Assembly: GCA_963795085.1 (NCBI GenBank)
Contig: CAWCFX010000003.1
Span: 259,411 to 323,410 of the forward strand
Length of the DNA: 64,000 bases
Origin: an uncultured Gemmatimonadales bacterium
Lineage (GTDB): Bacteria > Gemmatimonadota > Gemmatimonadetes > Gemmatimonadales > GWC2-71-9
Reading direction: 5' to 3'
Each line of letters starts with the position of its first letter. The stretch's first letter is position 1. A program made the position numbers and the translations under genes. Below are positions 4,731-58,636 of the stretch, piece after piece. The notes under the pieces are model-generated. The model ran no database searches, was not told the DNA's origin, and saw only the letters and a program-made list of their open reading frames with translations.

Positions 4731-5297
4731 ATGAAGCGGATCGTGAGAAGCGCTGCGGTTCTGGGCATGGTGGCCATGGTAAGTGTTGCATCCGCCCACG
4801 CGCAGGCTCCAGGTCGGGCCAGCTTCCATGTGGCTGGTGGCGTCACCCTCCCCATGGGTGATTTTGGGGATTTCTTTGGAACCGGGTTCCAGGGTCTGGC
4901 CGGCGTGAACTTCGGGCTGGGCAGCATTCCGTTCGCCCTTCGGGTGGACGGCTTCTATGGCCAGAACAGCGGCGATGAAGCCGTGACCGGTCCGGACGTG
5001 AAGGTCAAGATGTTCGGTGGCATGGCGGGTGGCCAGTTCAACTTCGGCTCCGCCGCTTCGCCGGTGAAGCCCTACATCCTGGCCCAGGTCGGCATGGTGA
5101 ACAACAAGGTCAGCGGCCCGGGTGGCAGCACCGACGGCGAGAGCGACTTCGCGTTCGGCGGCGGCGGCGGCGTCGGGTTCGGTCTCGGCTCCATGGCGGC
5201 GTTCGTGGAGGGCCAGTATGTCTCGGTCCAGACCGAGGGGAGCTCCAGCAACTTCATCGCGGCCCGCTTCGGCATTCGCTTCGGCGGCGGCATGTAA
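4731..5297 (+). CDS. outer-membrane beta-barrel protein (small porin / OmpA-N / OmpW-like family)
   Basis: GGAGG RBS. Signal peptide MKRIVRSAAVLGMVAMVSVASAHAQA. Gly-rich alternating amphipathic strands and a C-terminal aromatic motif (ARFGIRFGGGM). Followed by a strong terminator. Confidence 0.6.
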   Translation: MKRIVRSAAVLGMVAMVSVASAHAQAPGRASFHVAGGVTLPMGDFGDFFGTGFQGLAGVNFGLGSIPFALRVDGFYGQNSGDEAVTGPDVKVKMFGGMAGGQFNFGSAASPVKPYILAQVGMVNNKVSGPGGSTDGESDFAFGGGGGVGFGLGSMAAFVEGQYVSVQTEGSSSNFIAARFGIRFGGGM

Positions 5298-24705: not shown

Positions 24706-24806
24706 GGGGCAAGGGGGCAAGGGGGTATGGGGGTATGGGGGTATGGGGATATGGGGGGATGGGGGGATGGGCTGGACCACTGGACCACTTGACCACTTGA
24801 CCACTT
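24706..24806. repeat. 8-nt-phased G-tract tandem array, about 12.5 units
   Basis: Units read directly from the sequence: GGGGCAAG x2, GGGGTATG x3, GGGATATG, GGGGGATG x2, GGCTGGAC, CACTGGAC, CACTTGAC x2. It fills almost the whole gap between the permease 4 stop (24701) and the bshB1-like start (24814). Confidence 0.9.
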
Positions 24807-31470: not shown

Positions 31471-31518
31471 CTTGCCCCCTTGCCCCCCGCCCCTGCCCCC
31501 CTGCCCCCCTGCCCCCCC
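31471..31518. repeat. C-tract tandem array (CTTGCCCC x2, CCGCCC, CTGCCCCC x2, CTGCCCCCCC); reverse complement of the GGGGCAAG family
   Basis: Read directly from the sequence. Lies 48 nt upstream of the ppk GTG start. Confidence 0.85.
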
Positions 31519-38443: not shown

Positions 38444-38932
38444 TCAGCCGAACAGCTTGTCAATTTCATCTTCAGCATCACCCAGGAAGCCGGTTTCCAC
38501 ATGGGATCGTCCAGCGCCGTCCTGGCTGAACATCCCTTCGAAGACCTTGTTCAGTTCGCCCACGGTATTCTTGACCCGCAGCTTGACCAGCCCGAGCGTG
38601 GTACGGTTGTCGAACAGCACGACCAGGATGACCCGGCGGGCGATATCCGCCAGGTACATGGATTCCTTCTCTCCCTGGTGAAACAGGGCCCCGAACTCGG
38701 GCTCCCCGATCATCTTGGCCAACTGGTCGTTGGCGCTGAAGTCGGCGGCGGTAAGGGAGGCGAACGCGGTCGGATCGAAGGTGGGAGGCTCGCCGGCGGT
38801 GGTGATCATCTGCCCGGTGCGGTCAACGATCAGCGCGGTCCGGGCCCCGGACTCACGCAGGAATTCGACCAGGATGACCTGGATGCTCCGGGCATCTTCT
38901 TCACGGAAGGACCAACTGGAAGCGCCTGACAT
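38444..38932 (-). CDS. mglB: Roadblock/LC7 domain protein, MglB-like GTPase-activating protein
   Basis: Part of ORF 38444..39253. ATG at 38932 follows GGAGGGTG. IQVILVEFLRESGARTALIVDRTGQMITTAG...ADFSANDQLAKMIGE...LVVLFD is typical Roadblock/LC7. Followed by an acidic C-terminal tail. Confidence 0.8.
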   Translation of the reverse strand: MSGASSWSFREEDARSIQVILVEFLRESGARTALIVDRTGQMITTAGEPPTFDPTAFASLTAADFSANDQLAKMIGEPEFGALFHQGEKESMYLADIARRVILVVLFDNRTTLGLVKLRVKNTVGELNKVFEGMFSQDGAGRSHVETGFLGDAEDEIDKLFG

Positions 38933-39815: not shown

Positions 39816-40124
39816 TCAGAGCGGCATGTTGAAAGGGAACGGCTGCACCTTTCGCATTTCCGCCTGGAGTACTTCCTGGGCCCGGCGCTGCGCCTCGGCC
39901 ACCGCGGAGGTGACCAGATCGGAGAGGAACTCGGCATCCCGGTCCTCGAAAGCCGCCGGATCGATGGTGATGGACCGGACGGTGCCCCGGCCGTCGGCCG
40001 TGACTTTGACCAAACCCGCCCCCGCCGAAGTCTCGATGGTGCGGGATGCAAGTTCGGTCTGGATCTCCTGCAGCCGGCCCTGCATCTGCTGGCCCAGCTG
40101 AAACAACTGCTGTAGGTCTGCCAT
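39816..40124 (-). CDS. ybaB: YbaB/EbfC family nucleoid-associated protein
   Basis: Part of ORF 39816..40178, start at 40124. MADLQQLFQLGQQMQGRLQEIQTELASRTIETSAGAGLVKVTADGRGTVRSITIDPAA... The conserved dnaX-ybaB-recR order supports the call. Confidence 0.85.
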   Translation of the reverse strand: MADLQQLFQLGQQMQGRLQEIQTELASRTIETSAGAGLVKVTADGRGTVRSITIDPAAFEDRDAEFLSDLVTSAVAEAQRRAQEVLQAEMRKVQPFPFNMPL

Positions 40125-40242
40125 GAATCCGTAAGTTCCTGTCAAATCGTAAAATAGGCGCGCATCCGGAGGGGGCAAGTGGTCCCGTGAGCCAAGGCGC
40201 CAGGGCTGGATGCACCACCGGACCCCTGGCCCCCGTTGCCCC

Positions 40243-41973
40243 TCAGTCCACGATCTCCAAATCTAACTCATCGGCGGCGGCATCGAGGGCCGGATCCTTC
40301 TTCCGCAGCGTCTTAAGCCGCTCCGCCCTGGCCCCGGCATCCGACATCCGCTTTGGCCGGGGTGCGGAATCCTCGGGTAATGGAGTAGCCGAACCCACCT
40401 GGAAGGTGACCGGGGCCGCGACGAAGCGGACCAGGATTGCCTCCACGATACCGCGCTGCCGATTGAGCCGCTCGGCGATCAGGGGATTGGGGTCCAGCAA
40501 CTCCACCGTGAGCCTGGGAGGAGCCGCCTCGATCGGTCGGCTGGCGCCCAGGGCCTCGCCCAGGAAGGGACTTTCCTTGCGGGCCTCCGCCACCACAGCG
40601 CCCCACGCCTCCTCCAGGGCGGACACGGTGAACGGCACCGGGTCGGCCGACAAACCCGGTCCCGGGGGCGGGGGCAGGGGAACCGCCTCCGGCGCCTCGG
40701 TGGGCACCGGCGGGGTGGGCGCGGGCTCCCGGGTCGCTCGGGGCTCGGGCCGGGCAGATGGCGCGGGAAGGATGGGCCGGCGGGGCGCGTTCGGTTCCCC
40801 GCCGGTATTCCGAGCGGGCGGAGTGGCCCCATCCCCCAGCTGGGCCAGGACCCGTTCCAGGTCCACGACCTGATCCATCAATGTCCAGCGAAGCAGGAGC
40901 GTCTCAACCATCAACCGCGGGTTCGCGCTGCGCCGGATCCCCTGCTCCTGGTCGGCCAGCAGCTTGAGCATCCGCAGGACATCGCCGGCGGCCAGCCGGG
41001 TGCGATAGTGGTCCAGCTGCTGGCGCATGGCTTCGGTGAGACCCTCCGGGTCCGAGCCCAGCTGGAGCATCAACAGCGACCGCAGCATCTCGGCGGCCCC
41101 GTTCATGAACTCGCCCAGGTCGGCGCCACCCTGGGTCAGCCGCTCGACCAGCGGGAAGACCGCCTCGGGGCGGCGCTCGGCGACCATCGCCAGGACTTCG
41201 CCGTAGAGTTCGTCGTCCACCAGGCTGAGAATGGACCGGACGCTTTTCACGGTCAGCTCGCCGTCGCCGAAGCTGAGACACTGGTCGAGCACCGAGAGGG
41301 CATCCCGCATCCCGCCATCGGCGCCCCGGGCAATGAGGGTCAGCGCATCGTCCTCCGCCCGGATTCCCTCTGCCCGGGCCACCTCCCGGAGGCGCTCGCG
41401 AATGGCGGCCGGCCCGATCCGGCGGAAATCGAAGCGCTGCAGCCGCGACATCACCGGGGCCGCCGCCTGCGCAATCTTCTGCGGCTCGGTGGTGGCGAAG
41501 ACAAACACCACGCCGGGCGGCGGCTCTTCCAGGATCTTGAGAAGGGCGTTCCACGCCTCCCGGGTGAGCATGTGGGCCTCGTCCACGATGTACACCTTGT
41601 AGTGGCCGGGCTGGGACGCCGCGTACATCGCCCGCTCGCGCAGTTCCCGGGCATCGTCCACCCCCCGGTTGCTGGCGGCGTCAATCTCCACCACGTCCAG
41701 GTTGGCGGACCCGGCCCAGATCCGGGCACAGTTGACGCACTCGCCACAAGGCTCGCCGGGCGGATCCATCTCCTCTTTCCGCTCGCAGTTCAGGGCCATG
41801 GCCAGGATCCGCGCCGCGGTGGTCTTCCCCACCCCGCGAGGGCCGGTCAGCAGGTATCCGTGCCCCACCCGGTTTCGGGCGATGGCACCGCGGAGCACGT
41901 TGGCCACGTGGTCCTGCACGATGAGATCGGAAAATTTCCGGGGACGGTACTTCCGGGCGAGCGCGATTGCCAT
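40243..41973 (-). CDS. dnaX: DNA polymerase III subunit gamma/tau
   Basis: ALARKYRPRKFSDLIVQDHV, Walker A GPRGVGKTT, Zn module CGECVNC, KVYIVDEAHML, Pro-rich linker, then a C-terminal tau-like region. Confidence 0.9.
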   Translation of the reverse strand: MAIALARKYRPRKFSDLIVQDHVANVLRGAIARNRVGHGYLLTGPRGVGKTTAARILAMALNCERKEEMDPPGEPCGECVNCARIWAGSANLDVVEIDAASNRGVDDARELRERAMYAASQPGHYKVYIVDEAHMLTREAWNALLKILEEPPPGVVFVFATTEPQKIAQAAAPVMSRLQRFDFRRIGPAAIRERLREVARAEGIRAEDDALTLIARGADGGMRDALSVLDQCLSFGDGELTVKSVRSILSLVDDELYGEVLAMVAERRPEAVFPLVERLTQGGADLGEFMNGAAEMLRSLLMLQLGSDPEGLTEAMRQQLDHYRTRLAAGDVLRMLKLLADQEQGIRRSANPRLMVETLLLRWTLMDQVVDLERVLAQLGDGATPPARNTGGEPNAPRRPILPAPSARPEPRATREPAPTPPVPTEAPEAVPLPPPPGPGLSADPVPFTVSALEEAWGAVVAEARKESPFLGEALGASRPIEAAPPRLTVELLDPNPLIAERLNRQRGIVEAILVRFVAAPVTFQVGSATPLPEDSAPRPKRMSDAGARAERLKTLRKKDPALDAAADELDLEIVD

Positions 41974-42134: not shown

Positions 42135-43820
42135 ATGAGCATCTCTCTCAAGGCGGCCCACCTCAAGCGATACCGGGACATCGCCCGGTTGTTCATCAAG
42201 TACGGGCGTTCCGACCTGGTCGCGTCGGCGGGCATGAATGGCGACCTGGTGCCGCCGGTCCCGCAGGACGTCCCGGTGCCGGCCGCCGAGGAACTGGCGA
42301 CCGACCTGGAGAAAATGGGGCCCACGTTCATCAAGCTGGGCCAGCTGCTGTCCAGCCGGGGGGAGATTCTGCCGCCGGCCTACCTTACCGCCCTGGAGCG
42401 GCTGCAGGACGACGTGGAACCCTTTCCCTTCTCCGACGTGGAGAAGATCGTCACCGAGGAACTGGGCGCCCGGCTGTCCAAGGCCTTTTCATTCTTCGAT
42501 TCAACCCCGCTGGCCGCCGCCTCCCTGGGCCAGGTGCACCGGGCGGCGCTCCGGGACGGCCGGGCGGTGGTAGTCAAGGTCCAGCGCCCCGGCATCCGGG
42601 AGCGGGTGGTCGAGGACCTCGACGCCTTTGACGAGATCACCACGCTGCTGCTCAAGCATACCAGCCTGGGAGAGCGCTACGACCTCGCCGGGATCATGGA
42701 CCAGTTCCGCAAGTCGCTGCTCACCGAACTGGATTACCGGCGGGAGGCGGCCAACCTGCTCCGGCTGGGACAGAACCTCCGGTCATTCGAGCAGATCGTT
42801 GTCCCGGCCGCGGTGGATGACTACACCACGACCAGGATCCTCACCATGGACTACGTGAGCGGCAAGAAGATCACCGCGCTGAGTCCTCTGACCCTGATCG
42901 AGGTGGACGGCGAGGAACTGGCGGAGAGCCTCTTCCGGGCCTACCTCAAGCAGATCTTCGTGGACGGGTTTTTTCATGCCGACCCTCATCCGGGCAACGT
43001 CTTCCTGACCGAGGACTACCGGATCGCGCTGCTGGACCTCGGCATGGTCGCCACCATTCCGCCCCGGATGCAGGAACACCTGCTCCAGATGGTGCTGGCG
43101 ATCGCGGAGGGACGCAGCGACGAAACCGCCGACTTCGTGCTCAAACTGGGCGAGACGACCGAGCACCTGGACGAGCGGGAGTTCCGGCGCCGGGTGGCGG
43201 AGCTGGTCAGCGCCAGCCATGGCGCCAGCATCGGGGAACTCAAGGTGGGCCGCATATTCCTCGAGATGTCCCACTATTCGGCCGAGACCGGGGTGCGGCT
43301 CCCGCCGGAACTGACCTTGCTCGGCAAGGCGCTCCTCAACCTGGATGGCATCGGCCGCACCCTGGCTCCGGAGTTCGACCCCAATGCGTCCATCCGGAGA
43401 AACTCGGCCCGGCTGATGAACCAGCGGATGATCAAGAGCCTGTCGCCGGGCAGCATTTTCAGCAACGTGATCGAAATGAAGGAAATGGTGGACCGCCTGC
43501 CGGGACGGGTGAACAAGATCCTGGACCACGCGGCCAACAATCAGCTGGGGCTCAAGATCGACACGGGAATCGACTCAGCCCAGTTCATGGTCGGGCTGCA
43601 GAAGGTGGCCAACCGGATCACCATCGGCTTGATCCTGGCGGCGCTGATCGTCGGGGCGGCGTTGCTGATGCGGATCGAGACGAGCTTCAGGATTTTCGGC
43701 TATCCGGGGCTGGCCATGCTGTGTTTTCTCGGGGCGGCCGGCATCGGGCTGGCCCTGTTGCTGCATATCGTGTGGCAGGACGTGTCGGAGAGCGAAAGCA
43801 GGAAAGGACGGAGACAATGA
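42135..43820 (+). CDS. ABC1/UbiB (AarF) atypical kinase family protein with C-terminal TM helices
   Basis: 561-aa ORF. GPTFIKLGQLLSSR, AASLGQVHRA, VVKVQRPG, HADPHPGNVF, LDLGMV. Two C-terminal hydrophobic helices. Confidence 0.85.
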   Translation: MSISLKAAHLKRYRDIARLFIKYGRSDLVASAGMNGDLVPPVPQDVPVPAAEELATDLEKMGPTFIKLGQLLSSRGEILPPAYLTALERLQDDVEPFPFSDVEKIVTEELGARLSKAFSFFDSTPLAAASLGQVHRAALRDGRAVVVKVQRPGIRERVVEDLDAFDEITTLLLKHTSLGERYDLAGIMDQFRKSLLTELDYRREAANLLRLGQNLRSFEQIVVPAAVDDYTTTRILTMDYVSGKKITALSPLTLIEVDGEELAESLFRAYLKQIFVDGFFHADPHPGNVFLTEDYRIALLDLGMVATIPPRMQEHLLQMVLAIAEGRSDETADFVLKLGETTEHLDEREFRRRVAELVSASHGASIGELKVGRIFLEMSHYSAETGVRLPPELTLLGKALLNLDGIGRTLAPEFDPNASIRRNSARLMNQRMIKSLSPGSIFSNVIEMKEMVDRLPGRVNKILDHAANNQLGLKIDTGIDSAQFMVGLQKVANRITIGLILAALIVGAALLMRIETSFRIFGYPGLAMLCFLGAAGIGLALLLHIVWQDVSESESRKGRRQ

Positions 43821-44002
43821 AGGAAGAGTGCCCCAGGCACCCCGAAGCGACACCAGACATCGCTTAGCGCTGCTACCGGCAAGGTCCTGACGCGATTCGC
43901 GCGCCAGCGCCCTTCGGACCTGGGGCGAGGGAAAAGTAACGGCCCAGGGGGCGATCGGCCAGTGGTCCCCAGCGGGTTAGTGCCCCACACCCCTCAATTC
44001 GC

Positions 44003-46645: not shown

Positions 46646-49341
46646 CGGCCGGTCCCCAATAATACCGCGTTGGTCACCAGCCTGGCGGTCCCGCGCCAGA
46701 ACCCCCGGAACAGGGGGTTCTCCGCGAAAACTACCACCGATCCGCGACCGACGTTTTCGACCGCGGCCCACACCGAGCCACGAAGCAGCTTCTCGGTGTT
46801 TCCGGGCCACGTGAACCCGGCAAGGGTCAGGTCGGAGCCCACAAAGACGACCGGGTTATCTCCCTTCTCCGAGGGCTTGAGCAGCCGGCCGGTATCCAGG
46901 AACACGGGAAGCACATCCCGGGCATACCCCATGGTGAGCCAGTGGGTCTGGTCGAGGGAGGCCCGGAAGATGGCGCCGGGAATGCGGACCGGGGTGCGGC
47001 TCGCCCCCGCGCTGGGCGACACCAGCGGGGGCGCCGGCCGGCTGCTCAGGCTCACCGTCGTATCGGCCCCGGGCAGCTTGGTCTTATCGGTTTCGTCCTC
47101 GCCCAGCGGCACCACGGTGGTGAGGGAGATCTCCTTGCGGCTCAGCACCTCGACCGCGCCCCCCACGGCGAGAATGCTGCCGCCGCTTCGCACCCAACTC
47201 TTCAACCGTTCTGCCCCGCTCTCGCCGAGTTCCCGCCAGATCCGGCTGGAAGACCCGCCCGGAAGAATCAGGACGTTGTATCGGTCGAGGTCCATCCCGC
47301 TGATGGCCGAGAGCCGCACCGGCGTGACCGGGTAGCGCAGCTCCTGCTCGAAGTAATACCAGAAGTCTCCAAAGGTCGTCTGGTCGAGTCCATCATCCGC
47401 CGCGAGCAGGACCCGGGGCGTCCGCAGGCTGACGACGCTTTCGCTGCCCACCCCGGTGTTGCCGGTATCGGCGAAGGCCGACTGCACGGCGGTCACCTGG
47501 GCGCCGGTCTCCATGGCCAGCGCCGCGATCCGCTCGTGGATGCCCACAGGATTTCGTTGCAGCCGCACCACGAACGTACCCCGCGGCCAGGCGGCGCCAT
47601 CGGCGACGAGAGGCGCGGTGGCGACGGCGACCTTGAAATCCTCGCGCAGGAGCTGCATCGCGAGCCGGGCACCCGCCTCCGATCCGTTGGTAAACACGTA
47701 GGCCGAGCGGGCCCGCCCGGTTACGGTCCCCGGCGGCAGGCTGTCATCCACCGCCACCCGACGCCCGCTGACCGGCGCGGCCTCGTCGGTGTGCCAGGCG
47801 TCGAGACCCAGCGTCAGCGGCAGCGCCCATGCCGTGATGTCGTAGAATTCGTAGCCTTCCTGGGCGGCTTCCTCGCCCCGGATCCGGTTGCGTTCGAAGC
47901 GGCCCAGCTGACGCTGGGCGAACCCGCTGTCCATCAGCGGCCGCGGTTCCAGGATGGCGGTGGCCAGCCGGGCCTCCGGCTGGTCGAGATCCACCACGTA
48001 GCTGCCGGCCGGAATGACCTGCCGTCCCGCCGGACCGCCCAGGTAGGACGTGGCCCGGGCCAGGGCGACCGGGGCCTCGGTGCGTATCACCTCGATGTGC
48101 TGGCGGGACAGCAGGCTTGCCAGCCAGTGGGCGCGAGCCGGGTCGCCGGCGCCGCCAAACACGATGCGCCGGAGCGGCCGTCCCCGCGCCTCCGCCATGC
48201 CGGTGGCGTGGAAGGCGTGGTAATCCTGGAGCAGCGCCGCCCGGTTGGCCGCCGCCGTGGCCAGGGTGGCCAGGGAAGCGACATAGTGATGCGCGATGCC
48301 CATCTCGAAGCTGGTCCAGGTCCCGTCGTCCTTGCGCTTCCGAAGCTCCGGCCCCCCGTCGGTCTCATACGTCATCCCGATGGCCCCGCTCAGGGTGGGC
48401 CATTCGTCCACGTAGCCGGGGTAGAAGAAATCGAACACGTCCCGCACGTAGTACTGCCAGCCGTAGCGGTCGAAGGCGTTCCCGTTGTTGCGGCCAAACC
48501 GTTCGAACCACTGAAGGGTCGATGCCGGCAGGTTGCGGTTGGTCGGCTGGGTGACCGGGGGGAAGAAATATTGACTGGTCGTGCTGTGCAGGTCCACGAC
48601 TACCTGGGGCCGCCACCGCGTCATCACGCCGGCGAGGGCACGCGATTCCAGCTGCGACTGGGCCAGCAGGTCCCGGTTCATGTCGAACCGGTAATGGTTG
48701 TACCGGCCCCAGATGCTCCAGGGTTCGGTCTGTTCCAGCGCCGCCGGCTCGTCGGTGTTGACGGCGACCGAATTGTACCACGCGGCGAACCGCTCGTGCC
48801 CATCGGGGTTCTGCGACGGATTGATGAGGACGAGGGTCTGCCGGAGGATCTCCAGGGTCGCCGGCTCGTCGCTCGCCAGCAGTTGATACGCGGTCTGCAT
48901 GGCCGTCTCGAAGCCGGCCGGTTCATTGCCATGCACCGAGTGGGACAGCAGGACCACGGCGGGCAGCCCCTCGGCGACGGATCGGGCGTCAGCGGCGGTC
49001 GTCGCCCGCGCATCGGCCAGCCGGGCCAGCCCGGCGCGGATCTGGTCCAGCCGGGCCAGGTTTTCCGGCGCCGAGATGATCAGCAGCCGCATCACTTTCC
49101 CCTCGGCGGTCCGGCCCATCACCTCGGTCCGGACCCGCTCCGGCGCCGCCGCCATCATCCGGTCCAGCACCCCCTGCTGCTGGTGATACATCGTGTGCCG
49201 GGCGCCAATCCGGTATCCCAGGAGGCTTTCCGGGCGAGGCACGGCGGCGCGGTAGGGACCCCGATCGTAGAAATCGAACTCCTGGGCCGCCAGCGGGGTG
49301 GCCAGGGAGAGGGCGATGGCGAGGGCAATGAGTCGGGGCAT
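46642..49341 (-). CDS. large secreted M14 family zinc carboxypeptidase with C-terminal extra domains
   Basis: ORF 46642..49359. ATG at 49341 gives signal peptide MPRLIALAIALSLATPLAAQ. M14 Zn motif HSVHGNEPAG, and downstream HS/HST and E residues. The C-terminal region contains a GATase1/DJ-1-like stretch (YNVLILPGGSS...GGSILAVGGA). Confidence 0.8.
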   Translation of the reverse strand: MPRLIALAIALSLATPLAAQEFDFYDRGPYRAAVPRPESLLGYRIGARHTMYHQQQGVLDRMMAAAPERVRTEVMGRTAEGKVMRLLIISAPENLARLDQIRAGLARLADARATTAADARSVAEGLPAVVLLSHSVHGNEPAGFETAMQTAYQLLASDEPATLEILRQTLVLINPSQNPDGHERFAAWYNSVAVNTDEPAALEQTEPWSIWGRYNHYRFDMNRDLLAQSQLESRALAGVMTRWRPQVVVDLHSTTSQYFFPPVTQPTNRNLPASTLQWFERFGRNNGNAFDRYGWQYYVRDVFDFFYPGYVDEWPTLSGAIGMTYETDGGPELRKRKDDGTWTSFEMGIAHHYVASLATLATAAANRAALLQDYHAFHATGMAEARGRPLRRIVFGGAGDPARAHWLASLLSRQHIEVIRTEAPVALARATSYLGGPAGRQVIPAGSYVVDLDQPEARLATAILEPRPLMDSGFAQRQLGRFERNRIRGEEAAQEGYEFYDITAWALPLTLGLDAWHTDEAAPVSGRRVAVDDSLPPGTVTGRARSAYVFTNGSEAGARLAMQLLREDFKVAVATAPLVADGAAWPRGTFVVRLQRNPVGIHERIAALAMETGAQVTAVQSAFADTGNTGVGSESVVSLRTPRVLLAADDGLDQTTFGDFWYYFEQELRYPVTPVRLSAISGMDLDRYNVLILPGGSSSRIWRELGESGAERLKSWVRSGGSILAVGGAVEVLSRKEISLTTVVPLGEDETDKTKLPGADTTVSLSSRPAPPLVSPSAGASRTPVRIPGAIFRASLDQTHWLTMGYARDVLPVFLDTGRLLKPSEKGDNPVVFVGSDLTLAGFTWPGNTEKLLRGSVWAAVENVGRGSVVVFAENPLFRGFWRGTARLVTNAVLLGTGR

Positions 49342-49444
49342 GGGGGGCAAAGGGGGCAAAGGGGCAAAGGGGCAAAGGGGGCAAGGGCAAGGGGCCAGAG
49401 GGTATGGGGGTACGGCCCGCTTGCCCCCTGTCCCCCTGGCCCTC
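49342..49444. repeat. G-tract tandem array (GGGG(G)CAAA x4, GGGGGCAA, GGGCAA...) followed by an imperfect G/C palindrome
   Basis: Read directly from the sequence. Nine G-tracts of 3 or more lie between 49342 and 49412. GGGCCAGAGGGTATGGGGG (49392-49410) pairs imperfectly (15/19) with CCCCCTGTCCCCCTGGCCC (49424-49442). It fills the whole gap between the yihY-like stop and the M14 start. Confidence 0.85.
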
Positions 49445-54564: not shown

Positions 54565-56028
54565 CTACACATGCTCGACCTTGAGAAGGTTGGTCGTGCC
54601 GGGGACGTCAAAGGGGACCCCGGCGGTTACCACCACGGCCTGGCCCGGCTCCGCCAGCTTGTGCTCCAGGATCCGCTGCCGGGCCACGGTGAGCATGGAG
54701 TCGTAGTTGGGCAGGTGGTCCACGTGGACCGGGATGACGCCCCAGACCAGCGAGAGTTGCCGGAACGTTTCGATCTCCGGTGTCACCGCGAAGATGGGGA
54801 CCGGTGGCCGGTACGAGGAGACCTTCCGGGCGGTGAACCCGCTGCTGGTGAAGCAGACGATAAGCGGCGTGGTGAGCAGTTCGGCCGCCACGCATACCGC
54901 CAGGCCGATGGCGTCCTCGGTGCGAACCGGGGCGGCCCGGGGTGCCGCCACCCGGTCGCCGTCTTCGCCCTTGCGGCGGGAATGGCCGACCGCCGCCTCG
55001 TAGGAAGGGCTCCGCCCCCGCTGGTTGGCTTCCATTTCTCGGGCGATCCGGTCCATCGCGCGGACCGCTTCGACCGGGAATGACCCCACCGCGGTCTCCG
55101 CCGAGAGCATCACCGCATCGGTCCCGTCCAGAATGGCGTTGGCCACGTCGCTCGCCTCGGCCCGGGTGGGCCGGGGCGCGTGCACCATGGACTCCAGCAT
55201 CTGGGTGGCGGTGATCACCGGCTTGCCCTGGAGATTGGCCTCCCGGATCAGCCGTTTCTGCACCAGCGGCACCTCCTCGAACGGCAGCTCGACGCCGAGG
55301 TCGCCCCGGGCGACCATGATGGCATCGGAGGCTTCGATGATGGTGGACAGGTTGCGGACCGCGGTGTCCTTTTCGATCTTGGCGACCAGCCGGATCGACT
55401 TGGGAACCAGGGCGCGGAGCTCTTCCATGTCCTCGGGACGGCGGACGAACGAGAGGGCGATGAAGTCCACTCCCTGGCGCACCGCCCGCTGGACATCCTC
55501 CCGGTCCCGCTCGGTCAGCGCGGGGGCGCTGACCTCGATGCCTGGCAGGTTCATGCCCTTGTTGCTCTTGAGGTCGCCGCCGTACACCACGAGGCCGCGC
55601 ACCTTGTTGCCGGTCACCCCGGTCACCGTGACCTCGAGCAATCCGTCATCCAGCAGGATGCGGGCGCCGGCGCTCACGTCCTTGGCAAGGTCTTCGTACG
55701 TAGTCGGAATTTCGCGGGGACCCGCGCTGCTTTCGGGGGCGAACACCACTTCGCTGCCGGGATCGAGCCGGAGCGGCGCCGGGAGCGTCCCCACCCGGAT
55801 CCGGGGGCCCTGCAGGTCTAGGAGGATCGCCGCCGACGAGCGCCGGGCCTGGAACACGGCCTTGAGATCGGCGATCCAGCTTTCCCGGATGGCCGGCGTC
55901 CCGTGCGACGCATTGATGCGGACCACGTTGACGCCCGCATCGAGCAGCGAGGTGATTTTCTCCTGTCCCGCCCAGGCGGGGCCCAGGGTGGCGACGATCT
56001 TGGTGCGGCGAGGCGCGGTTCGGTTCAT
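54565..56028 (-). CDS. pyk: pyruvate kinase
   Basis: Part of ORF 54565..56508, start at MNRTAPRRTKIVATLGPA (complement of 56026-56028). RINASHG, LLDLQGPRIRVG, MVARGDLGVE, ATQMLESM, and a C-terminal alpha/beta domain. Confidence 0.9.
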   Translation of the reverse strand: MNRTAPRRTKIVATLGPAWAGQEKITSLLDAGVNVVRINASHGTPAIRESWIADLKAVFQARRSSAAILLDLQGPRIRVGTLPAPLRLDPGSEVVFAPESSAGPREIPTTYEDLAKDVSAGARILLDDGLLEVTVTGVTGNKVRGLVVYGGDLKSNKGMNLPGIEVSAPALTERDREDVQRAVRQGVDFIALSFVRRPEDMEELRALVPKSIRLVAKIEKDTAVRNLSTIIEASDAIMVARGDLGVELPFEEVPLVQKRLIREANLQGKPVITATQMLESMVHAPRPTRAEASDVANAILDGTDAVMLSAETAVGSFPVEAVRAMDRIAREMEANQRGRSPSYEAAVGHSRRKGEDGDRVAAPRAAPVRTEDAIGLAVCVAAELLTTPLIVCFTSSGFTARKVSSYRPPVPIFAVTPEIETFRQLSLVWGVIPVHVDHLPNYDSMLTVARQRILEHKLAEPGQAVVVTAGVPFDVPGTTNLLKVEHV

Positions 56029-56053
56029 TTTCGAAGCATCGGTGAACAATAGA

Positions 56054-57622
56054 TCACGCGGCGAACGGGGAATTATACACCACCTCGCCGCCGACCACCG
56101 TGAGCAGCACGGCGGCCTGCCGAAAACCGGCCCCGCCTTCCCCGGACAGTGCCGCCCCGTCCCACACCACCAGGTCCGCGTCCATCCCGGGGGCCAGCCG
56201 TCCCCGCCGCCCGCCCACCCCCGCCGCGATCGCGGGCCCCGCCGTATAGGCGGCGATGGCGGCCTGAAGCGCGATCCTCTCGCCGGGGTACCAGGCCGGC
56301 GCACCAGCCTCGGCCCGGCGTTCGGTGGCGGCGAAAACTCCTTCACGAGGGTCCAGGCTGGCGACCGGGGTGTCGCTGCCAAAAGCCAGAAGCGCGCCTC
56401 GTTCCAGCAGCGAGGCAAAGGCGTATGCCCCGGCGCCCCGACCTCCCCAGTGCCTGTCGGCCAGCGGAATATCCGTGAGCAGGTGAGCCGGCTGCATGGA
56501 AAGGACAATGCCGTGGCGGGCGGCCCGATCGAGGTCGGCGGGGTGGACGCACTGGAAATGCTCGATCCGGTGGGGAATCGCAGTCCGGGGGAGATCCTCC
56601 ATCAGGTCCAGGGCCCGGCGGACGGCGGCGTCGCCGATGGCGTGGACCACTGACGCGAGTCCGCTCCGGGCGGCCAATGCCGTCGCGGCCCGGGCGGTCG
56701 CCTCCTCGCTGATCGGCATGCCCCGTTCCCGGCTGCCTTCGTAGGGGGCCAGCATCCACGCCGTGCGGCTGCCCAGGCTCCCATCGAGAAACATCTTGAC
56801 CCCGCCGTGGGTCAGCCAGTCCCCGCCCGCGCCGCTCCGGACTTGGTCCCGGACCAGGCGCTCCAGGTCGACGACCGGGTGATGGAACAACACCCGCAAC
56901 CGGAGCCGGTCGGTCTCCACCAGGCGGCTGAAGGCCTCATAGGCCAGGTGGTTCTCCACGTCGTGAATGCCGGTAATACCTAACCGGTGGGCCTCGGCCT
57001 GGCCCTCGAGGAGCGCGGTGACCACCCGGTCCAGCGGGGGATCGGGCAGGAGGTCCCGCACCAGGTCCACAGCCCGCTCCAGAAGCAGCCCGGTCGGCTG
57101 GCCGGCCCCATCACGAACAATCTTCCCGCCAAAGGGATCGGGGGTCCGGGGACCAATGCCCGCCAACCGAAGCGCCGCGGTGTTGACCCAGGCGGCGTGC
57201 ACATCAACAGAATGGAGAAAGACCGGGGCTCCCTGGACCCCATCCAGGGCCGCACGCTCGGGCGGCTCCGCCCAGCCGTTCGAATCCCACCCCTGGCCGG
57301 TAACCCAGCCATCCAGGGGAGCGACCAGGGCCACCCGGGCCAGAGCCTCCGCTCGCGTCGAGGCGCCGGCCAGTTGCACCTGGTGACGGCCCAGCGCCCA
57401 CATGGCAAAGTGAGTGTGGCTGTCCACGAACCCCGGGGTCACCAACCCACCGGCAAAGTCGTAATGGGGGGTCCCCACGGGCAGATGTCCCGCCAGGTCC
57501 CTGCTCGACCCAACCTCCACGATCCGGCCGTCCTGCCACCAGAGGCTGTCAACCGGACCCGAACTATCCACTGAGAAGACTCGGCTGGCCCGGATGAACC
57601 CTGTCCTGGGGAAGAATGCCAT
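56054..57622 (-). CDS. amidohydrolase family protein (Amidohydro_3-type metal-dependent hydrolase)
   Basis: Part of ORF 56054..57676, ATG at 57622. GGLVTPGFVDSHTHF (HxH), VHAIGD, IEHFQ, FGSDTPV. Confidence 0.8.
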   Translation of the reverse strand: MAFFPRTGFIRASRVFSVDSSGPVDSLWWQDGRIVEVGSSRDLAGHLPVGTPHYDFAGGLVTPGFVDSHTHFAMWALGRHQVQLAGASTRAEALARVALVAPLDGWVTGQGWDSNGWAEPPERAALDGVQGAPVFLHSVDVHAAWVNTAALRLAGIGPRTPDPFGGKIVRDGAGQPTGLLLERAVDLVRDLLPDPPLDRVVTALLEGQAEAHRLGITGIHDVENHLAYEAFSRLVETDRLRLRVLFHHPVVDLERLVRDQVRSGAGGDWLTHGGVKMFLDGSLGSRTAWMLAPYEGSRERGMPISEEATARAATALAARSGLASVVHAIGDAAVRRALDLMEDLPRTAIPHRIEHFQCVHPADLDRAARHGIVLSMQPAHLLTDIPLADRHWGGRGAGAYAFASLLERGALLAFGSDTPVASLDPREGVFAATERRAEAGAPAWYPGERIALQAAIAAYTAGPAIAAGVGGRRGRLAPGMDADLVVWDGAALSGEGGAGFRQAAVLLTVVGGEVVYNSPFAA

Positions 57623-57668
57623 GGAGCGAAGATAGCGGGGGAAAGGCACTTCCCAACGGTTGTCTACG

Positions 57669-57913
57669 TTTTCCACATTGTTGAACCCACATGGCTCAAC
57701 AGCCCCGAAATCCGCTCACCCGGGTTTGCCGGAGTTTCAAACATCCAAGTTGAAAAATCGAGTTGTCAACATGGAAAAGCCGAAACTCCGTGGAAACCTT
57801 GAATTATCATCTTCTCGCACAAGCGTTTATAGGACCGCCTTATTATCCACTTGAGGTGAGATTCGTAAGCCCTTTATTAACATAGATATCGATGGCACAG
57901 TGAATGTGGAAAA
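57669..57913. promoter_or_regulatory. cluster of five DnaA-box-like 9-mers in an AT-rich intergenic island (candidate oriC / DnaA-binding locus)
   Basis: TTTTCCACA (57669-57677, +). TTTTCCATG (reverse complement of 57770-57778). GTTTCCACG (reverse complement of 57789-57797). TTATCCACT (57843-57851, +). TTTTCCACA (reverse complement of 57905-57913). The consensus used is TTWTNCACA. AT-rich tracts lie at 57811-57826 and 57870-57895. Confidence 0.5.
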
Positions 57914-57940
57914 GCCCCTGGCGACAGTGTCGTCAGGGGC
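57906..57940 (-). terminator. Rho-independent terminator after the ydjM-like gene
   Basis: On the minus strand: GCCCCTGACGAC-ACT-GTCGCCAGGGGC, a 12-bp stem including one G-U pair (57914-57940), followed by TTTTCC (complement of 57908-57913). It lies 29 nt downstream of the stop at 57969. Confidence 0.7.
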
Positions 57941-57968
57941 CGGGCGAATATTCATGATCAGTGAATAA

Positions 57969-58517
57969 TCAGGAAACGGCGTCTTCGACCGCGCTCTTTC
58001 TCTCCCGCCGGGGGAAGAAGGCAAGCAGGGCATACACCAGGAGCGGCAGGAAGATCAGCGTCTCCGTCACCAGGGTCGGAATCGCCTGGACTGTCAGGTA
58101 GTGGGCGGCGTTCAGCACGCCCGGGATGGGCCGCCAGAGAAACTCATAACTCTGGGTGGAAAAGGGCCAAAGCAGCATCGGCCCGTTCCCCAGTTGGCTC
58201 ATGGTATCCAGGAGGCCATGGCTGGCCAGGGCTAAGGCCACAGTGCCCCCGGACCAGAAGCGTGCCCCTGCCCCGCCTCTCGCAACCAGCAGGCCTATGA
58301 TCCCCAGGGTCACCGCGAACAGGATGGAATGGGTGATACCCCGGTGGGCGAGCGGGGTGTTCGGGAGGACCCCGAAGAGGCCGGCCAGGAGGTCCAGGTC
58401 AGGGGCGACCGCCAAGGCGGCAAACCCGATGATTGCGGGCCGGGGGTTCCGGCCCGTCCCACGGCTATACAGGGCGCCGAGGGCGGCCCCCGCGGCGAGA
58501 TGTCCGATGCTTGCCAT
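57969..58517 (-). CDS. membrane-bound metal-dependent hydrolase, YdjM/DUF457 family
   Basis: Part of ORF 57969..58568, ATG at 58517. MASIGHLAAGAALGALY..., PDLDLL, HRGITHS, and several TM helices. Confidence 0.7.
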   Translation of the reverse strand: MASIGHLAAGAALGALYSRGTGRNPRPAIIGFAALAVAPDLDLLAGLFGVLPNTPLAHRGITHSILFAVTLGIIGLLVARGGAGARFWSGGTVALALASHGLLDTMSQLGNGPMLLWPFSTQSYEFLWRPIPGVLNAAHYLTVQAIPTLVTETLIFLPLLVYALLAFFPRRERKSAVEDAVS

Positions 58518-58540
58518 GCCCCACCCTTCAGGTGAAACCC

Positions 58541-58562
58541 CCGGGACACCGAAGTGCCCCGG
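58541..58562 (-). other. 9-bp stem-loop with UUCG tetraloop between the hypothetical gene and the ydjM-like gene
   Basis: On the minus strand: CCGGGGCAC-TTCG-GTGTCCCGG (one G-U pair), followed by GGGTTTC. It lies 75-96 nt downstream of the stop at 58637 and 24 nt upstream of the ydjM-like ATG. Confidence 0.35.
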
Positions 58563-58636
58563 AGTCATGAATCAACCGGCTTCTGGGAGTTTAGGCAGGG
58601 GGAAGAACTGTGCCAATGGGGCCCGGCCCCCCGGGA

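What the first reader, a model, noticed from the sequence alone, without database searches (positions are those of the whole stretch)
57623..57968. AT-rich intergenic island with five DnaA-box-like sites: candidate replication origin or DnaA-titration locus
Seen in the sequence:
- The 346-bp gap between the amidohydrolase start (57622) and the ydjM-like stop (57969) is conspicuously AT-rich for this genome (for example gaattatcatcttctc and ctttattaacatagatatcgat).
- It holds five 9-mers matching the DnaA-box consensus TTWTNCACA at 7-9 of 9 positions: TTTTCCACA (57669-57677, +), TTTTCCATG (reverse complement of 57770-57778), GTTTCCACG (reverse complement of 57789-57797), TTATCCACT (57843-57851, +) and TTTTCCACA (reverse complement of 57905-57913).
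- The two perfect boxes are inverted and 228 bp apart.
- The same stretch has five GTTGA/TCAAC pentamers, including the palindrome GTTGTCAAC (57762-57770).

Established knowledge: clustered DnaA boxes next to an AT-rich unwinding element define bacterial oriC. Similar clusters also form datA/DARS-type DnaA control sites and DnaA-regulated promoters.

Inference: this is an oriC or DnaA-control candidate.

Caveats: there is no dnaA or dnaN in the window, the genes on both flanks are on the minus strand (no orientation switch), and one box doubles as the U-tract of a terminator.
Basis: partly seen in the sequence, partly recalled or inferred. Interest (0 to 1): 0.7.

Follow-up and report, generated by a model that had tools for sequence, protein, structure and literature searches.

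The report
Conserved DnaA-box cluster, not the origin
The AT-rich gap holds a real cluster of binding sites for the replication initiator DnaA that is conserved with fixed spacing across an order of soil bacteria, but the strand asymmetries that reverse at a replication origin do not reverse here, so it is most likely a DnaA regulatory site rather than the origin.

Summary
The 346-bp gap is the lowest-GC stretch of this 68% GC Gemmatimonadales window. It carries the only two perfect TTWTNCACA sites in 64 kb.

The gap is a diverged copy of a roughly 250-bp non-coding module found in at least 74 related genomes, between ydjM and an amidohydrolase/pyruvate-kinase operon. The module has:
- box-like blocks A and B;
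- an invariant palindrome, GACACTGTC;
- a 121-124-nt AT-rich spacer, variable in sequence but fixed in length;
- a weak box D;
- an abutting inverted box pair, TTTTCCACA|TGTGGAAAC.

The same inverted pair lies next to dnaA in unrelated metagenomic contigs.

It is very unlikely to be oriC. A KOPS-like polar motif and GC skew keep the same strand polarity on both flanks in about 45-66 genomes. About 87% of genes on both flanks share one strand. No dnaA, dnaN or parS is nearby.

It is not a structured RNA.

Best reading: a non-origin DnaA-assembly locus, of the kind of B. subtilis DnaA-box clusters or E. coli datA/DARS, in the promoter region of a glycolytic operon. Its exact role is inferred, not shown.

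The parts
57623..57968 (.). Whole intergenic gap: the window's copy of the conserved roughly 250-bp module plus the operon promoter. All features below are described in the orientation of the amidohydrolase, which is the window's minus strand.
   Evidence: Homologous gap in L001-L080 and in 15 metagenome loci.
57960..57968 (-). TTATTCACT, a box-like 9-mer at the block A position; it abuts the ydjM stop codon (57969-57971).
   Evidence: The multi-box relatives have nTATnCACA at the aligned columns (L045, L067, L068, L078). In the majority type, block A reads TGTCGAAGA|TGTTCATAA, box-like in the opposite orientation.
57946..57955 (-). ATGAATATTC, the window's version of block B (TCTGCATAATTAC in most relatives).
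   Evidence: Alignments A1-A3. At this column, 93% of 75 sequences are within 1 mismatch of TGTGNAWAA.
57914..57940 (-). Block C, a palindrome with the invariant core GACACTGTC (57923-57931; it reads GACAGTGTC on the plus strand). In this lineage it is extended to a 13-nt-arm hairpin that could terminate ydjM.
   Evidence: The core occurs once per locus, in 63 of the 80 related loci (L070 at a different position). Flanks show no covariation beyond chance. Hairpin.
57905..57913 (-). Box 1, TTTTCCACA (perfect), directly after the hairpin.
   Evidence: Aligned to TTATCCACA, TTTTCCACA or TTATCAACA in L001, L002, L006, L015, L045, L067, L068, L078 and L080. Not conserved in the majority type.
57798..57919 (.). 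Spacer between block C and block D: 122 nt here. In relatives it is 121-124 nt, variable in sequence and 44% GC. In the window it contains boxes 1 and 2.
57843..57851 (+). Box 2, TTATCCACT. The 62-bp distance from box 1 is conserved.
   Evidence: The same 62-bp start-to-start spacing is seen in L002, L006, L048 and L071. Aligned AAGTGGAWAA in A1.
57789..57797 (-). GTTTCCACG at the block D position (ATATTCACT in most relatives).
   Evidence: At this column, 88% of 75 sequences are within 2 mismatches of TTWTNCACA.
57762..57780 (.). Degenerate block E: TTTTCCATG (57770-57778, minus strand) overlapping TTGTCAACA (57763-57771, plus strand). Relatives have the abutting inverted pair TTTTCCACA|TGTGGAAAC.
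   Evidence: The two columns are within 1 mismatch of the box consensus in 89% and 97% of 75 sequences.
57748..57757 (-). TTTTTCAACT, a box-like site with a TCAAC core.
   Evidence: Aligned to TTTTCAACTT in L002 and L006, and to TCCACA-type boxes in L048, L060, L067, L068 and L080.
57669..57677 (+). Box 4, TTTTCCACA (perfect), 12 bp upstream of the -35-like hexamer. It forms an exact 11-nt inverted repeat with box 1.
   Evidence: L002 and L006 have TGTGGATAA and TGTGGGTAA at the aligned position.
57629..57656 (-). Putative promoter of the amidohydrolase operon: TTGGGA (57651-57656), 16 nt, TATCTT (57629-57634), then 6 nt to the ATG (57620-57622). This would give a leaderless mRNA.
   Evidence: Read from the sequence. 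[C/G]TATCTT lies 5-8 nt before the start codon in L003, L013, L030, L035, L045, L047, L074 and L077, and is kept in L113, which lacks the amidohydrolase. It falls below the consensus scan's threshold, so it is an inference.
56054..57622 (-). Amidohydrolase (Amidohydro_3), first gene of the run amidohydrolase - pyruvate kinase (54565-56049) - MBL-fold hydrolase - glucose-6-phosphate isomerase - class II aldolase-like.
57969..58568 (-). YdjM-family membrane protein, the upstream neighbour, on the same strand.

Best explanation
The gap is a non-origin DnaA-box cluster: a conserved chromosomal DnaA-assembly module that is replicated passively.

Proposed mechanism:
- DnaA binds the near-consensus boxes. 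In the window these are 57669, 57843 and 57905. In most relatives it is the inverted pair TTTTCCACA|TGTGGAAAC.
- From there, DnaA recruits further DnaA to the weaker flanking boxes (blocks A, B and D).
- A second, unidentified dimeric protein binds the invariant palindrome GACACTGTC.
- The AT-rich spacer of fixed length (121-124 nt; about 157 bp from palindrome to pair, roughly 15 helical turns) keeps the two protein assemblies in register, so that the DNA between them can be bent or looped.
- The complex sits just upstream of the promoter of the amidohydrolase-pyruvate kinase-pgi operon. I therefore expect it to make that promoter DnaA-dependent and, at the same time, to sequester or modulate DnaA, as the B. 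subtilis DnaA-box clusters and E. coli datA/DARS do.

Shown here: the boxes, their conservation, the fixed spacing, the absence of RNA structure, and the absence of any replichore switch.

Inferred: DnaA binding (about 0.8), a non-origin location (about 0.9), an effect on the operon (about 0.5), and a role in DnaA homeostasis (about 0.35).
For: 1. Box enrichment is real and local.

2. In 80 related Gemmatimonadales loci, nearly every TTATCCACA site with at most 1 mismatch in each locus (up to 13.5 kb) lies in the gap upstream of the amidohydrolase. Several relatives have 3-5 consensus boxes with conserved spacing of 62, 80, 94 and 73 bp.

3. Alignments show conserved blocks A-E. The palindrome-to-pair distance is 156-159 bp in 74 loci, although the spacer sequence varies.

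4. A column scan finds six conserved box positions. Four are within 1 mismatch of the consensus, against about 0.1 expected by chance by my own rough estimate over the conserved blocks.

5. Position 3 of the boxes alternates T and A (TTTTCCACA, TTATCCACA, TTATCAACA), as in the DnaA consensus.

6. The same 17-mer lies beside dnaA, flanked by further DnaA boxes, in unrelated contigs L126, L150, L153, L177 and L188.

7. The module stays with the operon when the amidohydrolase is absent, as in L113 and nine others.

8. Evidence against an origin:
- GGGGNAGG is 82:16 on the left flank and 85:21 on the right, on the same strand.
- Per locus, 42 against 4 on the left and 40 against 5 on the right.
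- The result survives collapsing hot spots.
- The bias follows the DNA strand, not gene sense: 12:2 and 12:3 inside minus-strand genes.
- It agrees with the window, 9:19.
- GC skew is positive on both flanks in 27 of 45 loci, and four-fold-site skew shows no switch.
- About 87% of called genes are on one strand on both flanks.

9. Evidence against an RNA: nothing in Rfam; RNAalifold gives -0.96 kcal/mol with no covariation; no covariation around either palindrome.
Against: - No binding or expression data exist. DnaA binding rests on sequence only.
- The dnaA region of Gemmatimonadales could not be retrieved, so I cannot show that a better origin exists elsewhere.
- The layout has the same orientation logic and size as E. 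coli oriC (from my memory of that sequence): a left array in one orientation, a right array in the other, and conserved spacer lengths.
- The distance from the pair to the start codon varies from about 40 to 210 bp. This argues against a classical phased activator or repressor.
- The window's own copy has a degenerate central pair.
- No E. coli-type IHF site is present.
- The polar-motif argument assumes that GGGNAGGG-type motifs mark the leading strand in this phylum. That is supported but has not been established on a complete genome.
Confidence: 0.62

Rival explanations
1. It is the chromosomal replication origin (oriC) of Gemmatimonadales, located away from dnaA as in E. coli. DnaA would assemble on the two opposed box arrays and open AT-rich DNA within or beside the module.
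For: - Clustered, conserved boxes in the most AT-rich 300 bp of the window.
- Blocks of conserved sequence separated by spacers of conserved length.
- Opposed arrays of strong and weak boxes spanning about 235 bp.
- Blocks A-B are 38% GC and the spacer 44% GC in a 68% GC genome.
- The window's own flanks show a very weak negative-to-positive GC-skew pattern, -0.006 to +0.015.
Against: - The KOPS-like motif keeps the same polarity on both flanks in about 66 genomes, and the bias depends on strand, not on gene sense.
- Total GC skew and four-fold-site GC skew do not change sign. Two dnaA-adjacent control clusters, L188 and L126, do flip within 5 kb.
- Genes run through the site on one strand for at least 20 kb in the window, and about 87% of called genes are on one strand on both flanks in relatives.
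- No dnaA or dnaN in the window or within the sequence held for the 80 loci (up to 6 kb on each side), and no parS (at most 2 mismatches) in about 1 Mb.
- Most relatives have only two strong boxes.
Confidence: 0.1
2. It is an ordinary but complex promoter region whose TCCACA-type repeats and palindromes are operators for transcription factors other than DnaA, for example regulators of carbon metabolism.
For: - It sits in front of a glycolytic operon and keeps that position when the first gene is lost.
- Palindromes without covariation look like sites for protein dimers.
- Block C is clearly not a DnaA box.
- The distance from the pair to the promoter is variable.
Against: - The sites match the full 9-mer DnaA consensus, including positions 1-4, not only the TCCAC core.
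- Relatives have independently acquired perfect TTATCCACA at several positions.
- The identical inverted pair stands beside dnaA, with further DnaA boxes, in other phyla.
- Six box positions are conserved, against about one expected by chance (my own rough estimate).
Confidence: 0.15
3. It is a non-coding RNA gene or a structured 5' leader (riboswitch-like) of the amidohydrolase operon, and the hairpin is simply the ydjM terminator.
For: - A long conserved non-coding region with conserved length.
- A stable hairpin in the window (-22.5 kcal/mol, z=-3.9).
- -10-like CATAAT in block B.
Against: - No Rfam family, even at E up to 10.
- RNAalifold on 75 sequences gives -0.96 kcal/mol, with 6 invariant pairs and no compensatory changes.
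- The hairpin stem is not conserved and does not covary in relatives, whereas its loop sequence is invariant. This is the opposite of a terminator.
- The putative promoter lies downstream of the module, 6 nt from the ATG.
Confidence: 0.04
4. It is a chance clustering of box-like words in AT-rich spacer DNA.
For: Sites with 2 mismatches are common in AT-rich DNA (12 observed against 6.2 expected).
Against: - Perfect sites and sites with at most 1 mismatch are far above shuffles.
- They are the only perfect sites in 64 kb.
- Their positions are conserved in at least 74 genomes whose flanking protein is only 58-66% identical.
Confidence: 0.01

Closest known systems
DnaA-box clusters (DBCs) outside oriC in Bacillus subtilis (Okumura et al. 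2012, PMC3245932)
   Same: Intergenic clusters of DnaA boxes away from the origin. According to the abstract, some regulate the neighbouring genes and together they restrain initiation. Like those, this cluster lies in a promoter-bearing gap and is conserved among relatives.
   Different: A different phylum with no sequence homology. This module has a fixed internal geometry, a partner palindrome that is not a DnaA box, and an AT-rich spacer of conserved length. Its distance from the origin is unknown. No function has been tested.
E. coli DARS1/DARS2 (DnaA-reactivating sequences; PMC6868365)
   Same: The DARS core has three DnaA boxes: I and II oppositely oriented, II and III in the same direction. 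Blocks D, E-left and E-right have that orientation pattern. Like DARS2, the module has additional conserved elements 100-200 bp from the core.
   Different: The opposed boxes abut (0 bp, against 5 bp in DARS). D is 8-9 bp from E. No IHF consensus is present, and Fis was not examined. In the window itself the pair is degenerate. ADP release cannot be tested here.
E. coli datA
   Same: A non-origin cluster of DnaA boxes of oriC-like size, whose function depends on defined spacing and on a second DNA-binding protein (from my own knowledge of datA).
   Different: datA needs an IHF site between its boxes, and none is found here. The partner site here is a perfect palindrome. There is no homology.
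Bacterial oriC (E. coli type)
   Same: Strong and weak DnaA boxes in two opposed arrays over about 235 bp; conserved blocks separated by spacers of conserved length; the lowest GC in the region. The comparison with the E. coli R1...R4 orientation is from my memory of that sequence.
   Different: No switch of polar-motif or GC-skew polarity, no divergence of gene orientation, and no dnaA, dnaN or parS nearby. No 13-mer-type repeats or DnaA-trios were recognised by eye (not rigorously tested).
DnaA operators at dnaA promoters or dnaA-adjacent origins
   Same: The identical TTTTCCACATGTGGAAA pair, preceded by a same-direction box, stands next to dnaA in L153, L177, L188, L126 and L150.
   Different: Here the pair stands in front of an amidohydrolase/pyruvate-kinase operon, with no replication gene nearby.

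Membership tests
oriC (chromosomal replication origin) | A cluster of DnaA boxes | tested here: met
oriC (chromosomal replication origin) | An adjacent AT-rich DNA-unwinding element with repeats or DnaA-trios | tested here: inconclusive
   The region is AT-rich. No 13-mer-like repeats or trios were recognised by eye. No unwinding prediction was run.
oriC (chromosomal replication origin) | Lies at the point where leading-strand asymmetries reverse (GC skew, KOPS-type polar motifs, gene orientation) | tested here: not met
   GGGGNAGG 82:16 on the left and 85:21 on the right, same strand. Per locus 42 against 4 and 40 against 5. Strand-dependent, not sense-dependent. GC skew has the same sign on both sides. 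About 87% of called genes are on one strand on both sides.
oriC (chromosomal replication origin) | Supports autonomous replication; marker-frequency peak | not testable with these tools
   Needs experiments or read-depth data.
DARS-type DnaA-reactivating sequence | Three boxes: I and II opposed, II and III in the same direction | tested here: inconclusive
   The orientation pattern D -> E-left -> E-right (reversed) is present in 88-97% of 75 relatives. The gaps are 8-9 bp and 0 bp rather than the 5 bp between DARS boxes I and II. The pair is degenerate in the window.
DARS-type DnaA-reactivating sequence | Promotes ADP release from ADP-DnaA | not testable with these tools
   A biochemical assay is needed.
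datA-type DnaA-inactivating or titrating locus | A DnaA-box cluster outside oriC | tested here: met
datA-type DnaA-inactivating or titrating locus | An IHF-binding site between essential boxes | tested here: not met
   WATCARNNNNTTR is found in 1 of 75 sequences and not in the window. A different partner site, palindrome C, is present instead.
DnaA-regulated promoter / B. subtilis-type DBC | DnaA boxes in a promoter-bearing intergenic region, outside oriC | tested here: met
   The gap precedes the first gene of the operon. A -10-like TATCTT is conserved 5-8 nt before the start codon. The boxes lie 12-330 bp upstream of the -35-like hexamer.
DnaA-regulated promoter / B. subtilis-type DBC | DnaA-dependent change in transcription or in initiation timing | not testable with these tools
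   Needs genetics or transcriptomics.
Structured non-coding RNA or riboswitch | A conserved secondary structure with covariation, or an Rfam match | tested here: not met
Intrinsic terminator (for the hairpin 57914-57940) | A GC-rich stem followed by a U-tract, with the stem maintained by covariation and the loop free to vary | tested here: inconclusive
   The hairpin is stable in the window, but it has only 4 U and was not called by the scan. In relatives the stem is not maintained, while the loop or core is invariant.

The most novel reading that the evidence does not exclude
The module would be a dedicated DnaA-control locus, functionally analogous to datA/DARS, conserved throughout Gemmatimonadales. 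It would be built from two opposed DnaA-box arrays and a so-far-unknown partner protein bound to GACACTGTC, held about 15 helical turns apart. Through its position it would couple the state of the replication initiator to expression of pyruvate kinase and other glycolytic genes. That would be a direct cis-regulatory link between replication initiation and central carbon metabolism.
Probability: 0.25. Interest if true: 0.7.

Novelty: new variant of a known kind. Interest (0 to 1): 0.5.

Why it matters
DnaA-box clusters outside the origin have been worked out in only a few model bacteria: E. coli datA and DARS1/2, and the B. subtilis DBCs. I found nothing published on the Gemmatimonadota origin or DnaA sites.

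This module is conserved more strictly than the proteins around it. Its invariant 9- to 18-nt blocks and its spacing (fixed to within 1-2 bp) hold across genomes whose flanking enzyme is about 60% identical. That implies a geometry-dependent nucleoprotein complex under strong selection.

If DnaA binds it, it offers:
- a defined, testable non-origin DnaA site in an unstudied phylum;
- a candidate partner-protein site;
- a possible physical link between the replication initiator and a pyruvate-kinase operon. This is of interest because pyruvate kinase is implicated in the metabolic control of replication in B. subtilis (PMC9009071).

The finding also carries a practical warning. Box counting plus AT-richness would have mis-called this locus as oriC. 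Polar-motif polarity across orthologous loci is a cheap way to avoid that.

Tried and rejected
- **Rfam:** the gathering scan of the window and an E up to 10 scan of 57400-58200 found nothing relevant.
- **Promoter and terminator consensus scan:** no call inside the gap.
- **RNA structure:** RNAalifold on 75 sequences, and covariation around both palindromes, found no structure.
- **parS:** none in the window at up to 2 mismatches (one chance-level hit at 3), and none at up to 2 mismatches in L001-L080.
- **dnaA and dnaN:** The same queries did detect dnaA and dnaN in metagenome loci, so they work.
- **GC skew at four-fold sites:** low power because skew is weak in this clade, but no switch.
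- **Source contig:** exact-protein look-ups for two window proteins found no record.
- **Gemmatimonadales dnaA region:** I could not retrieve it. A protein search seeded with a foreign DnaA would be dominated by other phyla, so I did not spend it.
- **IHF consensus:** absent.
- **DnaA-trios and 13-mers:** looked for by eye only; nothing convincing.
- **Other contexts of the inverted pair:** Pfam on the neighbours was uninformative. Family Y was examined as a possible true origin and rejected, because GC skew is strongly positive on both sides and the flanking genes converge.
- **Near-box at 38493:** judged to be a chance match.
- **Literature:** searches for a Gemmatimonadota origin found nothing.
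Full report
**What is there.** The window is from a Gemmatimonadales bacterium of about 68% GC. The amidohydrolase next to the finding is at most 66% identical to its best relatives, all of which are Gemmatimonadales or Gemmatimonadota MAGs. The gap 57623-57968 lies between an Amidohydro_3 gene (56054-57622, minus strand) and a YdjM-family gene (57969-58568, minus strand).

The gap is 48% GC. The stretch 57613-57912 is the lowest-GC 300 bp of the whole window, at 46.3% against a mean of 67.7% (sd 3.6).

Two perfect TTWTNCACA sites occur where dinucleotide shuffles give 0.04, and they are the only two in 64 kb. Three of the window's four TTATCCACA sites with at most 1 mismatch are here. The two perfect boxes are an exact 11-nt inverted repeat. 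GTTGA/TCAAC occurs four times, not five. In relatives, those TCAAC words align with TCCAC box cores.

**Conservation.** I fetched 80 loci encoding relatives of the amidohydrolase, at 57-66% identity. In nearly all of them, every TTATCCACA-like site of the locus (up to 13.5 kb) falls in the few hundred bases upstream of that gene. A subgroup carries 3-6 such sites, including several perfect TTATCCACA, with start-to-start spacing of 62, 80, 94 and about 73 bp. The window shares the first spacings.

Alignments (A1, A2 and A3) show a module that reads as follows in the gene's orientation:
- block A: CATGTCGAAGATGTTCATAATT;
- block B: TCTGCATAATTAC;
- block C: the palindrome GGCGACACTGTCGCC, whose 9-nt core (GACACTGTC, or its GACAGTGTC variant) occurs exactly once per locus in 63 of the 80 loci;
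- a spacer that varies in sequence but is 121-124 nt long and 44% GC;
- block D: CAGATATTCACTTC;
- block E: two abutting, inverted boxes, TTTTCCACA|TGTGGAAAC.

The distance from C to E is 156-159 bp in 74 loci, and 157 bp in 52 of them.

A column-by-column scan of 75 aligned sequences finds six positions where at least 85% of sequences are box-like. Three are in blocks A and B in one orientation. Two are in D and E in the other orientation. One is the reversed half of E. Four of the six are within 1 mismatch of the consensus. My own rough estimate is that about 0.1 such matches would be expected by chance over the conserved blocks.

- block D: 57789-57797;
- the left half of a degenerate block E: 57770-57778;
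- three positions that are boxes in the window's closest relatives: 57905-57913, 57843-57851 and 57669-57677.

**Is it DnaA?** This cannot be shown without experiments, but the case is good. The sites match the whole 9-mer and not only the TCCAC core. Position 3 alternates T and A, as in the DnaA consensus. Different lineages have acquired perfect TTATCCACA at different positions.

A scan of metagenome contigs for TTTTCCACATGTGGAAA found the pair directly beside dnaA, flanked by further DnaA boxes, in five unrelated contigs (L126, L150, L153, L177, L188).

The same scan found the Gemmatimonadales module in 22 more contigs. In ten of them pyruvate kinase, not the amidohydrolase, is the first gene after the module. 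L113 keeps blocks A-E and the TATCTT motif but has no amidohydrolase. So the module belongs with the operon amidohydrolase-pyk-MBL hydrolase-pgi-aldolase-like.

**Is it the origin?** The layout looks like an origin: opposed arrays of strong and weak boxes over about 235 bp, conserved spacer lengths, and the lowest GC in the region. I therefore tested what an origin must also show, which is a reversal of leading-strand asymmetries.

1. Polar motif.
   - In the 66 loci where the module could be placed, GGGGNAGG, GGGNAGGG and GGNAGGGG are the three most strand-biased of 42 composition-matched motifs.
   - They favour the same strand on both sides of the module: 82:16 on the left and 85:21 on the right for GGGGNAGG.
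   - Per locus the counts are 42 against 4 on the left and 40 against 5 on the right.
   - After collapsing positional hot spots the counts are 46:14 and 47:18.
   - In the multi-box subgroup alone they are 17:6 and 21:3.
   - The bias follows the DNA strand and not gene sense. Inside minus-strand genes it is 12:2 on the left and 12:3 on the right.
   - In the window the motif favours the minus strand, 9:19 and 7:19, across blocks of genes on either strand.
   - This is the behaviour of a KOPS-type replichore-polar motif, and it does not flip at the module.

2. GC skew. Total GC skew is weakly positive on both flanks (+0.003 and +0.014), positive on both in 27 of 45 loci, and shows the origin pattern in only 12. 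Four-fold-site skew shows no switch. Two dnaA-adjacent box clusters used as controls do flip within 5 kb: L188 goes from -0.07 to +0.06, and L126 from -0.19 to +0.29.

3. Gene orientation. About 87% of called genes lie on one strand on both flanks. In the window the minus-strand run extends from 44 to 64 kb.

4. Replication genes. No dnaA, dnaN or parS is present in the window or within the sequence held for the 80 loci, up to 6 kb on each side.

I put the origin reading at about 0.1. The remaining doubt is that I could not inspect the dnaA region or a whole-genome skew curve for this order.

**Is it an RNA or a terminator?**
- Rfam gives nothing.
- RNAalifold on 75 sequences gives -0.96 kcal/mol, with six invariant pairs and no compensatory change.
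- Positions flanking both palindromes pair no more often than expected from their column composition.
- In the window, block C is extended to a stable hairpin (-22.5 kcal/mol, z=-3.9) followed by CUUUUCC. It may terminate ydjM in this lineage.
- In relatives the stem is not kept while the core is invariant, which points to a protein site and not a terminator.

**How it probably works (inference).** DnaA occupies the consensus boxes and nucleates further DnaA on the weaker boxes of blocks A, B and D. An unidentified dimeric protein binds palindrome C. The AT-rich spacer of fixed length keeps the two assemblies in helical register, since 157 bp is about 15 turns.

The operon's promoter appears to lie downstream of the module. 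TTGGGA-16 nt-TATCTT ends 6 nt before the ATG, and [C/G]TATCTT is conserved at that distance in relatives. This suggests a leaderless mRNA, although the consensus scan did not call it.

The distance from block E to the start codon varies from about 40 to 210 bp, while the module's internal spacing is fixed. The module therefore behaves as an autonomous unit and not as a phased operator. The closest analogues are the B. subtilis DnaA-box clusters, some of which regulate neighbouring genes and which together restrain initiation (PMC3245932), and E. coli datA and DARS.

DARS shares the pattern of two same-direction boxes plus one opposed box, but has a 5-bp gap between the opposed boxes (PMC6868365). 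Here the opposed boxes abut. No IHF consensus is present.

I commit to a non-origin DnaA-assembly locus that makes the adjacent promoter DnaA-dependent and sequesters or modulates DnaA. My overall confidence is about 0.6. The effect on transcription (about 0.5) and the role in DnaA homeostasis (about 0.35) are unresolved.

**Novelty and score.** I found nothing published on Gemmatimonadota origins or DnaA sites. The element is a new variant of a known kind: a non-origin DnaA-box cluster with an unusual fixed architecture and an unknown partner site, positioned in front of a pyruvate-kinase operon. That position is suggestive given the PykA-replication link in B. subtilis (PMC9009071), but nothing here shows a functional connection. 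Interest is 0.5.

Noticed in passing
Whole window; loci L001-L080: A KOPS-like polar motif (GGGNAGGG / GGGGNAGG) is strongly strand-biased in Gemmatimonadales, independently of gene orientation. In the window it marks the minus strand as the leading strand (7:19 and 9:19), so forks should cross the window from 64 kb towards 1, and the origin lies beyond the right end.
   Followed up: yes
L081, L090, L101, L102, L104, L117, L128, L129, L136, L167, L169, L191, L198, L199 (around the match to TTTTCCACATGTGGAAA): A second conserved element in other bacteria (GC 0.54-0.60). The same inverted box pair is embedded in conserved flanks, ...ACTTACCGGAC-pair-GTTCGTTT..., often 20-40 nt before an ATG. The neighbouring proteins have no Pfam hit.
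   Followed up: partly
L106 3530-3665, L138, L141, L145, L162: A third context. The pair sits inside an extended palindrome, CTTGAG...CTCAAG, followed by TTTCGCATGAATAT (which resembles block B) and an AT-rich stretch about 100-130 nt long where the contig extends that far. It lies between convergent MBL-fold and aminotransferase genes. GC skew is mostly strongly positive on both sides, so it is not an origin, and it comes from a different kind of organism.
   Followed up: partly
window 57629-57634 and 57620-57622; L003, L013, L030, L035, L045, L047, L074, L077, L113: [C/G]TATCTT is conserved 5-8 nt upstream of the amidohydrolase start codon, which suggests a leaderless transcript. The motif persists in loci where the amidohydrolase is missing and pyruvate kinase follows about 100 nt later.
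   Followed up: partly
window 43827-43926 (-), 40243-41973 (-), 39816-40178 (-): Bacterial small SRP RNA (Rfam, 43.2 bits), separated from the dnaX-ybaB gene pair by an ABC1-kinase gene (42135-43820, +); dnaX, ybaB and the SRP RNA often lie close together in bacteria.
   Followed up: no
window 24706-24806, 31473-31517, 49335-49402: Short G-rich or C-rich tandem arrays with 8-9-nt periods (GGGGGTAT, TGCCCCCC, GGGGCAAAG). The array at 31.5 kb inflates raw counts of CCCTNCCC.
   Followed up: no
window 4816-4907 (+): tRNA-Gly(CCC), reported as 92 nt by ARAGORN, which is unusually long for a tRNA-Gly.
   Followed up: no
window 57730-57738 / 57782-57790: A 9-nt perfect inverted repeat, CGGAGTTTC / GAAACTCCG, brackets the degenerate block E. 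It is not seen in the majority of relatives.
   Followed up: no
L188 4300-4500; L126 1300-1450: Clusters of 6-9 DnaA boxes next to dnaA, with a local GC-skew flip. They are probably true origins of unrelated metagenomic bacteria and were used here as positive controls.
   Followed up: partly
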